Positions 21,001-27,000 of a stretch of 28,758 bases of DNA are shown here, piece after piece (the first letter of the stretch is position 1; each line of letters starts with the position of its first letter). The DNA is taken from UHGV virus genome UHGV-0099614; one strand, written 5' to 3'. The position numbers are program-made. This DNA is from a virus.

Positions 21001-24000
21001 GTTATTCGAATGGCTGGGCGCGGCATGAGATAAAAAAAGAAACACTTTCTGTCACTGGCTTTCATGCTGTAAGACGCATACTAAAAGCCGTTCAGGCATC
21101 AAGGAAAGACAACTACAAATCTAAGCGGCAGATACAGCGTACATTAAAACGGCAAGACATAAATCGCTCACCAATCGCCCCATTCGAAGCACCGTTAATT
21201 AGCAAGCACGATTGGGACTTATCAGTGATAGCGGTCACCAAAGAGGCAGAGACAGAGCGTAGGGAGTTACTATCCTCACAGATAATAAACTCGAACAAAG
21301 TACAAACCCACCCGCTGTTAAGGATGTTAAGAAAAGCACGAGTGAGAGCATCCAGAGCCAGAAGAGAAAGCGGAGGTTATGACCATTACTACTAGTAGTG
21401 ACAGATCGTGACAAGGCAGAGCAAAAAACGACCAATAATAAGAGAAATATGCCTGCCAAACAGCCAAAAGCGCGGAGCGCGGCAAACGCAGCGAGAGGCG
21501 CAAGAAGGCGAACCTATCCATTGAAACGGTCAGAAGAGCGCATCGCGCTCGATGACCGGAGTCCCAACTAACACCATCAATAAAAGATCAAAGTCTTAGA
21601 AAAAAATGATTTTCCATTGATGGGCATCCATCCGTAAAAATCAATTTTTTAGAAAAAGTACTTATAGAAATTAATCACTTTATAAGAATGTGTTGACGTT
21701 AGCAGGCATCGCTTAAGCTCATCATTAATTACATAAAAAACAATCCAATAGAGATATCTGGCAATCAAAACCCCAGAAAAAAACCATCAACATAACATCA
21801 ACTTTATAAGCGATTTTACCGGTATTTCTTAGGTTGAATTCACGTAGAAATCTCAGTCGTGAATTTAAACCACATAGAAGCAATTTTTTGCATAATTGTA
21901 CCTGAGTTAGTTTCCTTTAACATGTTACTTAACCATCCCAAAAATAAATCCAATGATGATCCTCAGGTCAGACGGGCGATATTGATACCTTACCTGGCAG
22001 TACCTGGCAGTCGGCTGTGCCTAAAGCGGACGTTAGGAATAAACCAATGACGAGCAGGTCACATCATTGGTTAAGGGACACAGCTTGTACCAATTTATAT
22101 TTTTGATTGTTCTAAATCCAATCACTATAATAGTTCATCTGACAATGATTAACTTGCTTCAATACTCCCTTGCTCATCTATTTTTTTACCATTCTGACAA
22201 GCAACCAGGCTCTCATTACATGCTTTAATATCCAGAAAATGTCCTATTGTGAACTCAGTAGTCAGCAATGATATCAATTCCAAGTATTTACGAACTCTTC
22301 GAGGCATATCTATTACATTATAGATTAGTAATGCTAATCTTTGTTCAGCAGTTTCACCATCCAGATTAACTATTGCAGAGCGACAGCAATAATTAAAAAC
22401 ATGCTCAACATATCCATCATACCGTGGATTGTGTGCTCTACCACCAGCTAAAATAGCTCCATCTATGCAAGCCATCACTGTTACGTTTCTCACAATTGCA
22501 GTTAGGTAGTTTAGAGAAGATCCTGTTGCAGAAATGGTTTCTCCATATTTTTCCATAAACTTGAATACTAAGTATGTATCAGAAATTTCTGCTGAGCGGC
22601 TGAGATATAATATATCATCATACAAAATTGGAACAGGTGTACCCGAAGATAAGTTAGTTTGAATGCTTTTTTTTCTTTCCGGCAAAGATAAAGAGTTTAA
22701 AATCCTCATGACAAAGGAATTCATATTTGCCGTTGGATACTCTGAACTATACGCTAATTCACACATCAAATGGTCAATGCTAAGCAATGGGATACTATTT
22801 GCTATAGAAAGCTGGAAGGTAGAGTAAACAGCCCAATCAACCAAATCTCTTACTTTAACTAATAACTCTGGTGTATCTGCTGGTTTCAGCGGTTCTACTG
22901 TTACAAATTCAAGTAATATCTGGAGATTATGAATAAAATCACATGAATCCCTTCGAATATCTTCAGATGTGACTCTATAAAGTCCTTTATCAGATACACC
23001 TATAGACATGTAGTCTTCTCTTAGAATATTTTCAATCCACCCTTCCAATACTTGCTTTGTATATTTACATACAATTATTTCTATATTCGAATCTACTACA
23101 GCTGAAGAAAAACCCATTAATGAGAAATAAACAGCCGTATACACATCAATAATTACCTTATTTGGTGTTTCTTCTCCACTATTGAATAACTCCAAATATT
23201 TGGTTGATGTAATTGACGTTAAATGTGTTATAGCCCCTCTTACAGGGTCTGTAGGATCCGTAAAATTGCCTTTCATCGTTAAAGGTATATTGGGGGTATG
23301 CAATACTGCATCCCTTTCTTTATCTTTCGTAGAATATCGTTTTAGAATATTCTCAAAATAAGGAATGAATTCCTCTTCATGAGGAGGTAGAGAAAATTGT
23401 CTGAAAACATCAGTACCATCGTTACCTTTACTGCGAAGCTCCACAGCCTGCCTAAATACTGCGACGTAAGGAGGCACACGCTTAATCATTGTAAAGTCAC
23501 CAGAACAATCTCCTTCCTGCATATTCTCGAGAATCTGTCCAAGTGGTGACTCTATTTCCAACAAGCACGGATGACTAGCCTCAACGTCACGTACAAGAAT
23601 TCGGGTAAATGTTTCAAACCCATCAGAATATGTAATACCATCCCCACACTTATTAGGGACAAGTGGATTACTATTAACTTTTTGGCTATTTATCAATGAG
23701 TTTGCGTGAATCTGGGTCAAAGGCTTTGCCACTTTTACTGGGTTTTGGACAAACCAATCAACAAGCACTCTCTCTGCAATGTGTATATCAATATAAGTCG
23801 CTATTTCATTAACTAATGTGATCTTTGACTCATCGTAGGTAGAAAAAATAACTTCTGGGATCTCAAAAACAATTTCTTTAAGAAATTGCGCATCCCCCCC
23901 ATTTTTTCTTGATGTGTGCAGCAATAAGTACCAGGAATAAGGGTTGTTTGGTGAAATTTCAATTGCAAATCTGATCGATTTTATTGATAGCTCATATTCA

Positions 24001-27000
24001 TCTAATCGGTCGTACACTTGGGCTTCTCTTAAATAAATTAGCTCTGTTTTATCGCATGGTTCTAAGTGCTTTATTTTATTTAAAAATAAATCAATCTTAT
24101 CACTGAGAAATAGAGCGTTAAGATAACATTCGAAAATCGGAGATACCCAAGCTTCATCAGATAACAATGGGGTGAGATAATTAACCGCGTTCAATGGTAA
24201 ATTACATAAAATAAATTTATCGCATAAGTTTAATATGTTCGCAGGGTTTATTAGCATAAACTTTTTAGAATCTAATTCTAAAAAATCTTGCGCTTTTTTA
24301 TCCAGCAGTTGGATTTCATTCTTATCGTCAACCGAACATACTAGCGCCCTAAGGTACAAGTTCAAGAAGGAATTAATATAATCATCTCCTGTTTCAATTA
24401 TCCCTCCATTGTCTATCCAGTTATTTACGTCTTTAGCTTTCATCTGATTATTCTCAATAGCAAAAATAAGAAATGAAAACTTTTCCAAATCCAAAACATC
24501 AGATACTAATTCAAATTTAATATCGGGAGTGCTCATTCCTATTGAGGACTGCTCTAGATACTCCGCAGAAAAGGAGTCTATCTCCCTAACTTTATCAATA
24601 TGCAACTTTCCTAAATTATAAAGTCGACTATCTGAAAAATAGGTAAGTTTAAGCAAATTGGTTAAAACAGCGATATATCTATCATCTTTTCCGTCATCAA
24701 TATCAGCTAGTAATTGGATTATTAACCGGTCAACATTATCTTTTTCCTGTTTACTAAGTGAAACATAATGATTACGTTGGTTTCGAGTTATGAGTAAACA
24801 GGTTTCAGTGTATAGCCGAAGAATCCTTGAATTATTGGATGAATAATACTTATCCAGATTCTGAGCCAGTTCAAACGCAAAAACAAAATCTTGGACTCTT
24901 AAAGCACCGCGAACTAATCCAGTTAACTCTTGCTCGGATAAATCATAAACCTCTGTGTTATGATAGCTTTTAGATAGCTCTTCCATTGAGGCTAATCGCT
25001 CAAAGAACACCTCTTTGAGATAGAACCCATCTATTTTTAAATCTGAATATCTTTTTTTAGCTAACTCTTCAGAGGTTCTCGATTCCAAATCGATCAATAT
25101 AGATGTAATGACCTCACGAACATCACCAGGGAGGTCATTGTTCTGTAGCAATTTTAGAAGATCATTTTTTGATGATGATATCGAGCCTTTTACCAACTCA
25201 AGCTTTACATTCAAAGCATTCAATAGTAGATATACATCATTTTCTAATGAATGAATATTATTAAGAACGTCTAGCTTTTCACGAACTCTGCCTAATTCTC
25301 TATAGCAAATATCTCTCATTATACTGTCTATAACAGTCCGCAGATCCCTAGATTTAATACTACGAATTATATATTCGTATTTATCACCTATGATATTGTC
25401 ACCTACGCCACTGTGTATTTGATCTACCATCATCGTCCATTTCTTCTATTTGTATATATTTTTGTTTCCAATAATGTTATCACCAGAACCACTGTGATTC
25501 TGAGTCACTGACCCAATATTCGTGTTTTGCTCAGGCTGAATCAGTTTTAAAATTTGCTGTATTTCTGATGATTCGTTCAATTTTCGCTCGATAACATGCT
25601 CTCCATAATCCTTAAGCTCAAGAGTATTTACTTTATAAGCTAAAGTCTCCAATAAAGTATCGTCAACAATCCATCCATGTAGCTTTTCTTTCAAGAAACC
25701 TGTAGTTATTGCAACGCCGTTCTTAAACCCATCATAGAGTATTCCTGATAGCAGAGTACTTGTTAAAAAATCCATATCCCCCCCTTAAATTGCTTATTTA
25801 AACCTGTTGTCGCCGACTAAAACTGACCCATCCTTTTTGAGTTTTCGAGGTACAAAAGATGGTGTCTGAACTTGCTATCTGTGTTCTGGCTATATAGGAC
25901 TAGTCCATTAAATGATGATTACCTACTTGAACCCATCATAGTGCCCGCCAATGGGCTTAACATACCCTAATGTAATTAATGTCTCAATGTGACTAGATCG
26001 CCCTTTTGCACTTTAGGACTGATAGATCCGCTTCTCGCTTAAGGTTGCCCGCACCCTTCTGCATATGTTACTGAAGATGGTCAAGCAACATGCAAATGGG
26101 TAGTCAACTGGATGCGAATACTCATATTTTGTCTTATCCGACCATGTAAACACATCCCAGAGGGGTGTATATTGATGATTTAGGCTATTCAAGATCGCTA
26201 GTGTCGAAAACAATCTGCGACTTATCCATCTCCAGGCAATCTGGAGGCAAACCCAGCATAGCCTCAGCATCACCTACATTACCGATAATGGCGTAGTCAT
26301 CATATCCCCATCTTTCCAGATCGAGATTGCTTTCGGGATAACCAGGGGATAGTAACAACCATTCACGCAACTCTTTCAGTGTCTTTTCCATAATCAATAA
26401 GTTCCATGTTTAAGATTGGCTGACCACCAGCTACAGTCAATGATTATCCCATACGGGTAAAGCGGTGTCGGGCTATTTCTTCCAACTATCCCCCAATGAG
26501 TAGGGTTATCAAGAACCAGCAAGATAGCGGCAGTTGGAAGAGTAAACATTGATGTTTGAGGCATAACGCAAATTTGCGTTATGCCTGATTAACGGTAAAC
26601 CGGAACTACCAGCTATCATCCCCCTCTCAATAGGGTATACCGTAATGACAAGGTGATACAAAGTCTCAATAGGGTTGTATAGGAACATTTTGACTACACA
26701 AAATGCATTATGTATCATTTGCACTTATATTCACAACCCTATTGAGACAATGCAATGAACGTTAGAATTTACTGCCGAGCATCAACTGAGGGGCAACACG
26801 CTGATCGAGCACTTACCAGCCTACGTGAATTTTCAAAATCAAAAGGCTGGCAGATTGCAGGAGAGTATATAGAAAATGCTAGCGGGGCGAAGCTTGAGCG
26901 CGTAGAGCTTATGCGGCTATTGTCTGAAGCCCAGTCCGGCGATCTGTTGCTAGTGGAAGCTATAGATCGTCTGAGTCGCCTAGAACATAGCGCATGGGTC

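What the first reader, a model, noticed from the sequence alone, without database searches (positions are those of the whole stretch)
22149..25775. Uncharacterised two-gene cargo operon (109 aa + 1094 aa) in a mobile-element hotspot: candidate novel anti-phage system
Two co-oriented minus-strand genes lie between the HUH-Rep/AlpA module and the serine recombinase, just inside attR. That is the kind of variable cargo slot where satellites and prophages carry defence systems. The operon is visibly more AT-rich than its flanks, has a strong SD on the first gene, and only a 12-nt spacer between genes. I cannot assign either protein to any family: I found no Walker A (GxxxxGK[ST]), PLD or obvious PD-(D/E)xK motif. 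The large protein looks almost entirely alpha-helical. One weak lead is an Rx4H match (RNQRNH, residues 217-222, nt 24768..24785) that resembles a HEPN RNase motif but could easily be chance.
Basis: partly seen in the sequence, partly recalled or inferred. Interest (0 to 1): 0.85.

Follow-up and report, generated by a model that had tools for sequence, protein, structure and literature searches.

The report
Known Bab/Agp (GAPS6) anti-phage system
The two genes are real and do form an anti-phage defence operon, but it is not new: it is the published E. coli Bab/Agp system (also named GAPS6), in which a sensor protein passes an amyloid fold to a small membrane-damaging partner that kills the infected cell.

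Summary
Two co-oriented minus-strand genes of 109 aa (25446-25775) and 1094 aa (22149-25433) sit in an AT-rich block, 12 nt apart, about 1.7 kb inside the attR of an argW island. The claims "uncharacterised", "novel" and "no family" are wrong.

- **Family assignment:** NCBIfam assigns both proteins above its curated cut-offs, as GapS6a (120 bits, cut-off 90) and GapS6b (1064 bits, cut-off 850). Pfam finds HetE-N and PIN-TPR-GreABC. RefSeq already labels this DNA gapS6a/gapS6b in 22 of 5426 complete E. coli genomes.
- **Identity with the published system:** The small protein is 100% identical over residues 1-84 to PDB 9h9v. Gene sizes, the shared terminal motif and every mutated residue match Bab/Agp of E. 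coli ECOR25 (bioRxiv 10.1101/2024.11.07.622273).
- **Published mechanism:** Phage T5 infection makes Agp convert Bab through their shared BASS11 amyloid motif. Bab then damages the membrane and the infection is aborted.
- **HEPN lead:** It fails, because R217 is conserved in only 10 of 54 homologues.

Verdict: already known, low interest.

The parts
25446..25775 (-). bab / gapS6a: 109-aa cell-death effector.
   Evidence: ORF. NCBIfam GapS6a 120.3 bits against cut-off 90. Pfam HetE-N, 3.5e-33. RefSeq annotation gapS6a.
25524..25775 (-). Babybell globular domain (Bab aa 1-84). Its hydrophobic N-terminal helix 1 contains G11.
   Evidence: 100% identical to PDB 9h9v chains, E=3e-51. G11, D2, Y14 and D15 are present. 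Fold and mutant data come from bioRxiv 10.1101/2024.11.07.622273.
25452..25520 (-). BASS11 amyloid motif of Bab (aa 86-108, ...VTQNHSGSGDNIIGNKNIY), containing D99 and N100.
   Evidence: 13/19 identity to the Agp N-terminus. Conserved in 6 further partner proteins. Fibril formation and loss of function in N100P are published.
25778..25786 (-). Shine-Dalgarno sequence of bab (AAGGGGGGG).
   Evidence: Read directly from the sequence.
25434..25445 (-). 12-nt intergenic spacer between the bab stop codon and the first agp ATG.
   Evidence: Sequence. The same 12-nt spacing occurs in the Vibrio, Yersinia, Marinomonas and V. crassostreae loci.
22149..25433 (-). agp / gapS6b: 1094-aa sensor with TPR, GreA/B-C and PIN domains.
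   Evidence: ORF. NCBIfam GapS6b 1063.7 bits against cut-off 850, full length. Pfam PF20698. 60 full- or near-full-length homologues.
25371..25427 (-). BASS11 amyloid motif of Agp (aa 3-21, VDQIHSGVGDNIIGDKYEY).
   Evidence: Q5, H7, G9, G11, D12, N13 and K18 are invariant or at least 90% conserved in 54 homologues. The AF2 model is disordered over aa 1-25, pLDDT below 50. The published N12P mutant corresponds to N13 in the numbering used here.
23697..25352 (-). TPR-like alpha-solenoid (Agp aa 28-579).
   Evidence: AF2 helices 28-579. Foldseek hits to Ski3, Ctr9, APC/C Cdc27 and IFT-A TPR proteins. TPR sequence hits at aa 462-512.
23424..23648 (-). GreA/B C-terminal-like (FKBP-fold) domain, Agp aa 596-670, the putative RNA-polymerase contact.
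22734..23159 (-). PIN nuclease domain (Agp aa 759-900).
22152..22724 (-). C-terminal helical domain (Agp aa 904-1094), with no assigned role.
   Evidence: AF2 helices 904-1093, pLDDT mostly above 85. Conserved in homologues. No family hit.
24768..24785 (-). RNQRNH (Agp aa 217-222): not a HEPN motif. It lies in the TPR solenoid.
   Evidence: R217 is in 10/54 homologues and Q in 27/54. The position lies within the helical repeat region.
27516..27539 (+). attR: 24-nt perfect direct repeat of the tRNA-Arg(CCU) 3' end (attL at 3965-3988).

Best explanation
The operon is the Bab/Agp abortive-infection system of E. coli, which is a member of the GAPS6 (GapS6a/GapS6b) family and of the TPR-GreA/B-C-PIN 'TGP' conflict systems.

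Agp (1094 aa) is the sensor. It has a disordered N-terminal BASS11 amyloid motif of about 20 residues, then a TPR solenoid, a GreA/B-C domain that probably docks on RNA polymerase, a PIN nuclease domain and a helical C-terminal domain.

Bab (109 aa) is the executioner. It has a five-helix 'Babybell' domain that sequesters a hydrophobic N-terminal helix, followed by a C-terminal BASS11 motif.

On infection by T5-like and some Drexlerviridae phages, Agp is activated and its BASS11 motif adopts a cross-beta fold. Activation is presumed to involve oligomerisation after sensing hijacked RNA polymerase. The Agp motif templates the same fold on Bab. Bab then relocates to the cell periphery and damages the membrane, so the cell dies before phage progeny are made.

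Shown experimentally by others, for this allele: fibril formation, dependence on N100/N12, G11, S628/L634 and D762, the Abi phenotype, and interchangeability with fungal HET-S/NWD2-R0.

Shown here: identity of the locus with that system, the domain architecture, conservation of the motif and catalytic residues, and conservation of the gene pair.

Inferred and unproven: RNA polymerase as the sensed target, Agp oligomerisation, pore formation by Bab, and any role of PIN catalysis.
For: - Curated family models: GapS6a 120.3 bits (cut-off 90); GapS6b 1063.7 bits (cut-off 850), covering aa 5-1073.
- Pfam: HetE-N 3.5e-33 and PIN-TPR-GreABC 6e-16.
- RefSeq: this DNA, at 99% identity or more, is annotated gapS6a/gapS6b in 22 of 5426 complete E. 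coli genomes.
- Solved structure: PDB 9h9v ('Babybass') is 100% identical to Bab residues 1-84.
- Match to the Bab/Agp preprint: it describes a 109-aa Bab and a 1094-aa Agp from ECOR25 in a prophage defence hotspot. The window carries Bab G11 and N100 exactly. It carries Agp N13, S629, L635 and D763, which is a constant +1 offset from the published N12, S628, L634 and D762, and is explained by the tandem Met-Met start.
- Shared motif: 13/19 identical residues. It is conserved at the extreme N-terminus of 52 of 54 Agp homologues and at the C-terminus of 6 of 6 partner proteins examined.
- AF2 model of Agp: pLDDT 86.7, with aa 1-25 disordered.
- Gene pair: HetE-N plus TGP genes are adjacent in Vibrio, Yersinia, Marinomonas and metagenomic loci, next to integrases, DarTG, PemK/MazE and a group II-type RT.
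- Family-level function: the Vibrio GAPS6 pair reduced plaque numbers by two to four orders of magnitude for various coliphages.
Against: - I could not confirm the ECOR25 accessions (OWC60847.1, OWC60848.1) directly. Identity with the published allele rests on PDB 9h9v, protein lengths and residue positions.
- Agp numbering is offset by one from the paper.
- Within-pair co-variation of the motif is only modest. Cognate pairs share 11.4 of 20 positions and non-cognate pairs 10.0 of 20, and 124 of 5040 permutations reach the observed value.
- The main mechanistic source is a preprint.
- In that work the PIN mutant D762N destabilised Agp, so a catalytic role for PIN is unproven.
- No sequence method detected GreA/B-C. 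Only the fold comparison did.
- PADLOC-DB v2 (2023) has no model for the system.
Confidence: 0.96

Rival explanations
1. Two-tier model (Kaur et al. 2021). Agp is mainly a stand-alone first-line defence. Its GreA/B-C domain docks in the secondary channel of RNA polymerase hijacked by phage, and its PIN domain cleaves the extruded viral transcript. Bab-mediated killing is only a backup used when this fails.
Against: [quoted passage not shown] Beta-breaker mutations in either motif abolished all protection. This model complements the amyloid-signalling mechanism and does not exclude it.
Confidence: 0.25
2. The pair is mainly an addiction or toxin module that stabilises the integrative element, and phage defence is a side effect.
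For: Co-expression of Bab and Agp from a plasmid is lethal, and Bab alone is toxic when strongly overexpressed. The pair lies on a mobile element beside recombinases.
Against: Neither protein neutralises the other, and toxicity needs both proteins and both motifs. Native single-copy expression is tolerated and gives phage-specific Abi. Homologues sit among other defence genes.
Confidence: 0.04
3. One reading: a novel, unclassified defence system whose large subunit is a HEPN-type RNase acting through RNQRNH.
For: An Rx4H string exists at aa 217-222.
Against: R217 is in only 10/54 homologues, with Q in 27/54. The site lies inside the TPR solenoid. Both proteins fall in curated families and the system is published.
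Confidence: 0.01

Closest known systems
Bab/Agp amyloid-signalling Abi system of E. coli ECOR25 (Ibarlosa et al., bioRxiv 10.1101/2024.11.07.622273; PDB 9h9v)
   Same: - Same species and same gene sizes (109 and 1094 aa).
- Bab residues 1-84 are identical to the crystallised protein.
- Same BASS11 motifs and the same TPR-GreA/B-C-PIN architecture.
- Every functionally tested residue is present.
- Same kind of location, a prophage defence hotspot.
   Different: Nothing of substance was detected. Agp numbering differs by one because of the MM start. I could not check the ECOR25 accession itself. At least two near-identical Agp alleles circulate, WP_096985931.1 and WP_000989353.1, at 99.9-100% DNA identity to the window.
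GAPS6 (GapS6a/GapS6b) from Vibrio GMT islands (Mahata et al., bioRxiv 10.1101/2023.03.28.534373)
   Same: Same two-gene family by the NCBIfam models. The small HetE-N protein and the TPR+PIN protein are in the same order with the same 12-nt spacing. Anti-phage activity was shown in E. coli.
   Different: The Vibrio GapS6b proteins I recovered are about 60-63% identical to the window Agp. The carrier differs: a GMT island there, and an argW-integrated prophage or satellite-like element here. That paper gave no mechanism and did not note the GreA/B-C domain or the amyloid motif.
TPR-GreA/B-C-PIN (TGP) conflict systems (Kaur, Iyer, Burroughs, Aravind, eLife 2021, PMC8195603)
   Same: Same constant core (Pfam PF20698) and the same 'HetE-N' effector domain (PF20701).
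   Different: In the archetype the effector (EAD10, TIR, trypsin and others) is fused to the N-terminus of the TGP protein. Here the effector is a separate protein, coupled through a shared amyloid motif.
Fungal HET-S / NWD2 and bacterial Bell/NLR BASS gene pairs
   Same: It works like them. The receptor N-terminus and the effector C-terminus share a short amyloid motif. The effector is a helical membrane-targeting domain with a conserved N-terminal helix. The genes are adjacent. HET-S plus the R0 motif can replace Bab plus BASS11.
   Different: The receptor is not an NLR. It has no NACHT or NB-ARC NTPase and no Walker A. The Babybell domain is shorter (about 80 aa) than Bell or HeLo domains. 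BASS11 is a distinct motif family.

Membership tests
GAPS6 (GapS6a/GapS6b) | The small protein matches NCBIfam NF047935 above its curated cut-off. | tested here: met
   120.3 bits against 90, aa 1-105 of 109.
GAPS6 (GapS6a/GapS6b) | The large protein matches NCBIfam NF047936 above its curated cut-off over its full length. | tested here: met
   1063.7 bits against 850, aa 5-1073 on profile positions 1-1089.
GAPS6 (GapS6a/GapS6b) | Both genes are present, adjacent and co-oriented. The original paper required both proteins to count a system. | tested here: met
   12-nt spacer on the same strand. The same arrangement occurs in 6 other loci.
GAPS6 (GapS6a/GapS6b) | Confers phage resistance. | not testable with these tools
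   Published for the Vibrio pair and for the E. coli ECOR25 pair.
Bab/Agp amyloid-signalling Abi | Babybell effector domain with a hydrophobic helix 1 that includes G11. | tested here: met
   100% identity to PDB 9h9v over aa 1-84. G11 is present.
Bab/Agp amyloid-signalling Abi | BASS11 motif at the effector C-terminus and the receptor N-terminus. | tested here: met
   13/19 identity. Core residues are invariant or at least 90% conserved. The Agp N-terminus is disordered in the AF2 model.
Bab/Agp amyloid-signalling Abi | The receptor has TPR, GreA/B-C and PIN domains, with the tested residues S628, L634 and D762. | tested here: met
Bab/Agp amyloid-signalling Abi | The motif forms amyloid, and phage-triggered templating activates Bab. 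| not testable with these tools
   Published ssNMR, ThT, EM, GFP-foci and mutant data.
TGP conflict system (Pfam PF20698 / PF20701) | The PIN-TPR-GreABC and HetE-N domains pass Pfam gathering thresholds. | tested here: met
   59.3 bits against 27.8, and 114.4 bits against 25.
HEPN RNase | Conserved Rx4-6H catalytic motif. | tested here: not met
   R217 is in 10/54 homologues. No HEPN family hit.
NLR / STAND receptor (as in NWD2 and Bell/NLR BASS pairs) | Central NACHT or NB-ARC P-loop NTPase with a Walker A motif. | tested here: not met
   No GxxxxGK[ST]. No NTPase domain in Pfam or in the AF2 model.
GMT island cargo | Carried on an island defined by the GmtY/GmtZ/GmtX trio. | tested here: inconclusive
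   The island is bounded by argW att repeats and has an IntS-type integrase, a prophage remnant and an AlpA/Rep/resolvase module. No Gmt proteins are annotated, but I ran no Gmt-specific search.

The most novel reading that the evidence does not exclude
The experiments published so far leave the upstream half of the pathway open. The most novel reading still allowed has two parts. First, Agp could be a direct sensor of phage-modified RNA polymerase through its GreA-like domain, with its strictly conserved PIN active site cleaving transcripts as an independent first-line defence against phages that do not trigger Bab. Second, the carrier could be a small satellite-like integrative element that moves the system between argW prophage hotspots. 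In other strains this element consists of integrase, AlpA, rolling-circle Rep and resolvase, about 10 kb in all. Neither point is new as an idea (Kaur 2021; Ibarlosa 2024), and neither is shown.
Probability: 0.25. Interest if true: 0.4.

Novelty: already known. Interest (0 to 1): 0.12.

Why it matters
As biology, the system is remarkable. It is the first bacterial case where a prion-like amyloid motif of about 20 residues relays an immune signal from a sensor to a pore-forming-type executioner. This parallels fungal HET-S/NWD2 and mammalian RHIM/MLKL necroptosis. As a scan result, it is a rediscovery. The system is named in RefSeq, has curated HMMs and a crystal structure, and its mechanism has been dissected by mutagenesis on this same allele.

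Tried and rejected
- PADLOC-DB v2.0.0 gave no hit for either protein, because the library predates the system.
- PHROGs gave only non-significant hits.
- The HEPN idea was rejected on conservation.
- A Walker A / NTPase was absent by regex and by Pfam.
- Sequence-level detection of the GreA/B-C domain failed. Pfam on the excised segment found nothing, and a 54-sequence profile against PDB found only TPR proteins.
- The promoter scan showed no enrichment over shuffles (17 found, 20.1 expected) and no intrinsic terminator, so I cannot place the native promoter or terminator.
- The test for within-pair co-variation of BASS11 in 7 pairs gave a modest signal only, with 124 of 5040 permutations reaching the observed value. 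It was driven by the E. coli pair and the most divergent pair.
- The literature search found no peer-reviewed version of the Bab/Agp study in the held library, only the preprint.
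Full report
**Observation.**
- They are separated by 12 nt. The first gene is preceded by AAGGGGGGG, ending 2 nt upstream of its ATG.
- GC is 0.32-0.38 across 21501-26000, against 0.44-0.46 in the adjoining 1.5 kb on each side.
- There is no GxxxxGK[ST] motif, and RNQRNH is at residues 217-222.
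- The small protein's C-terminus and the large protein's N-terminus share 13 of 19 residues, VTQNHSGSGDNIIGNKNIY against VDQIHSGVGDNIIGDKYEY.

**Context.**
- tRNA-Arg(CCU) lies at 3913-3987.
- Its last 23 nt plus one further base (3965-3988) recur perfectly at 27516-27539. These are attL and attR of an island of about 23.5 kb.
- The operon lies between an AlpA gene (19184-19375), a rolling-circle Rep (20343-21395) and a resolvase-type serine recombinase (26755-27381).
- dsdC lies just outside attR.

**What it is.** Family searches settle the identity at once.
- NCBIfam assigns the small protein to GapS6a (120.3 bits, cut-off 90). It assigns the large protein to GapS6b (1063.7 bits, cut-off 850, essentially full length).
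- Pfam finds HetE-N (3.5e-33) in the small protein. In the large protein it finds PIN-TPR-GreABC (aa 761-895, 6e-16) plus weak TPR hits.
- The DNA of 22100-26000 is at least 99% identical in 22 of 5426 complete E. coli genomes, always chromosomal. RefSeq already labels the genes gapS6a and gapS6b.
- Exact-sequence look-up shows both proteins are common in public E. coli assemblies under those names.

**Literature.**
- GAPS6 is one of four systems from Vibrio GMT islands shown to protect E. coli against coliphages. Plaque numbers fell by two to four orders of magnitude. The authors noted only TPR and PINc domains (bioRxiv 10.1101/2023.03.28.534373).
- Kaur et al. (eLife 2021, PMC8195603) had predicted the TPR-GreA/B-C-PIN core as a conflict system. 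[quoted passage not shown]
- Most importantly, Ibarlosa et al. ('Amyloid signaling in antiphage defense', bioRxiv 10.1101/2024.11.07.622273) studied exactly this E. coli pair from strain ECOR25. They named it Bab (109 aa) and Agp (1094 aa) and placed it in a prophage defence hotspot.

**Identity with Bab/Agp.**
- The window's small protein is 100% identical over residues 1-84 to all chains of PDB 9h9v ('Babybass').
- The Bab residues mutated in that study are all at those positions here: D2, G11, Y14, D15, D99 and N100.
- The mutated Agp residues N12, S628, L634 and D762 appear here as N13, S629, L635 and D763. This constant +1 offset comes from the tandem Met-Met start. Most homologues begin MV.Q.H, and the cluster representative is 1093 aa.
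- I could not retrieve the ECOR25 accessions themselves, so 'same allele' is an inference from these matches.

**Independent checks of the anatomy.** I collected 61 homologues of Agp. Sixty are 43-75% identical and one is 24% identical. They come from Yersinia, Serratia, Citrobacter, Vibrio, Aliivibrio, Shewanella, Marinomonas and metagenomes. I aligned 54 sequences, the window protein plus 53 homologues.
- *N-terminal motif.* Q-x-H-x-G-x-G-D-N-[VI]-x-G-x-K sits at the extreme N-terminus in 52 of 54 sequences. D12 and K18 are invariant, and Q5, H7, G9, G11 and N13 are at least 90% conserved.
- *AlphaFold2 model of Agp.* Mean pLDDT is 86.7 and pTM 0.79. Residues 1-25 are disordered. They are followed by a helical solenoid (28-579), a beta-rich domain (596-653), an alpha/beta domain (759-900) and a helical C-terminal domain (904-1093).
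- *TPR.* Foldseek on the whole model returned only TPR superhelices: Ski3, Ctr9, APC/C subunits and IFT-A.
- *Conserved residues.* S629 and P630 are each in 52/54 sequences, and G632 and L635 in 54/54. PIN acidic residues D763 and D887 are in 54/54, E847 in 52/54 and D866 in 49/54.
- The TPR-GreA/B-C-PIN architecture is therefore confirmed without relying on the papers.

**Conservation of the pair.**
- In six further loci a HetE-N gene of 104-110 aa lies immediately upstream of the Agp homologue. The loci are Vibrio, Yersinia, Marinomonas, V. crassostreae, one metagenome contig, and one assembly of a public sequencing run whose Agp is only 24% identical. The gap is usually 12 nt.
- These loci sit beside integrases, DarT-Macro, PemK/MazE, a reverse transcriptase or a SNIPE nuclease. 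These are typical mobile defence neighbourhoods.
- Every partner protein ends in the same motif.
- Within-pair matching is visible: NIIG/NIIG in E. coli, NIAG/NIAG in L009, and HYG.GDNVGRDKII in both proteins of L010. Statistically it is modest: 11.4 against 10.0 identities of 20, with 124 of 5040 permutations reaching the observed value.

**How it works.** The mechanism comes from the Bab/Agp study.
- BASS11 peptides from both proteins form ThT- and Congo-red-positive fibrils with a beta-strand core seen by ssNMR. They also behave as prion-like foci in E. coli and in Podospora.
- Single-copy Bab/Agp blocks T5, some other Markadamsvirinae and four Drexlerviridae phages by abortive infection.
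- Protection is lost in Bab N100P, Bab G11K, and Agp N12P, S628L, L634P and D762N. The D762N mutant also destabilises Agp.
- HET-S plus the NWD2 R0 motif can replace Bab plus BASS11.
- Still inferred: RNA polymerase as the sensed target, Agp oligomerisation, pore formation by Bab, and PIN catalysis.

- The HEPN idea fails. R217 is conserved in only 10 of 54 homologues, with Q in 27, and it lies within the TPR solenoid.
- The absence of a P-loop is correct. Agp therefore works like the NLR receptors of fungal and bacterial amyloid-signalling pairs without being an NLR.
- The proposal to mutate 'the shared N/C-terminal motif' was apt, and that experiment has been done.

**Verdict.** This is the already characterised Bab/Agp = GAPS6 system. 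Interest as a new finding is low.

Noticed in passing
window 17987-28758 (and L012 14007-25772): The right-hand ~10.8 kb of the island runs from an integrase fragment through a 251-aa ORF, AlpA, HTH_17, rolling-circle Rep, bab/agp, a 70-aa ORF and a resolvase to dsdC. It is 99.9-100% identical in the listed top-matching genomes, while the island to its left varies (best full-window hit covers 50% at 96% identity). In strain E2 the module starts with a complete 428-aa tyrosine integrase. In the window only its last ~97 codons remain (17983-18279). It looks like a small satellite-like integrative element, decayed here, nested at the attR end of an argW prophage.
   Followed up: partly
window 3965-3988 and 27516-27539: Perfect 24-nt direct repeat consisting of the last 23 nt of tRNA-Arg(CCU) plus one further base. 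These are attL and attR of a ~23.5 kb composite island that begins with an IntS-type integrase (4113-5306) and gtr-like O-antigen modification genes.
   Followed up: yes
L006 6001-6125 (Marinomonas Agp homologue P0072; also P0067, P0071): The N-terminus carries a 14-16-residue extension that looks like a second, degenerate copy of the amyloid motif (MVEQDDTFIGDNVVGG NNATQSHTGSGDNVLGNK). A two-repeat arrangement would recall the r1/r2 repeats of HET-s. It could also come from an upstream start-codon call.
   Followed up: no
L011 2614-6561 (P0086, 1315 aa) and L007 3316-6957 (P0089, 1213 aa): These are Agp relatives without an upstream Bab gene. P0086 has a 232-aa N-terminal extension with a weak trypsin-like peptidase hit (E 0.0017) and keeps a degenerate BASS11-like stretch internally. 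It follows a metallo-beta-lactamase/Apyc1-like gene. P0089 sits next to a prophage repressor region, has an unassigned N-terminal extension, and has a disrupted motif. These are effector-fused variants of the kind Kaur et al. described.
   Followed up: partly
window 25428-25433: Agp has tandem ATG-ATG start codons. Most homologues start with a single M followed by V.Q.H, and the published residue numbering fits a start at the second ATG (1093 aa). The true start may therefore be 25430, which would make the spacer 15 nt.
   Followed up: partly
window 25776-26184 and 26185-26397: About 400 nt of non-coding DNA lie upstream of bab, followed by a conserved 70-aa ORF (RefSeq WP_000416087.1, hypothetical, no Pfam hit) on the same strand. 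The native promoter must lie in this stretch, but the consensus scan was not enriched over shuffles and found no terminator after agp.
   Followed up: partly
window 418-1674: An AT-rich (GC 0.32-0.35) 418-aa ORF lies between fadL and mlaA, outside the argW island. It contains a 50-nt imperfect direct repeat (639-688 / 843-892, 84% identity). An ORF at the corresponding position in strain EcPF15 is annotated only as hypothetical protein WP_000937812.1; I did not align the two. It may be another small cargo insertion.
   Followed up: no
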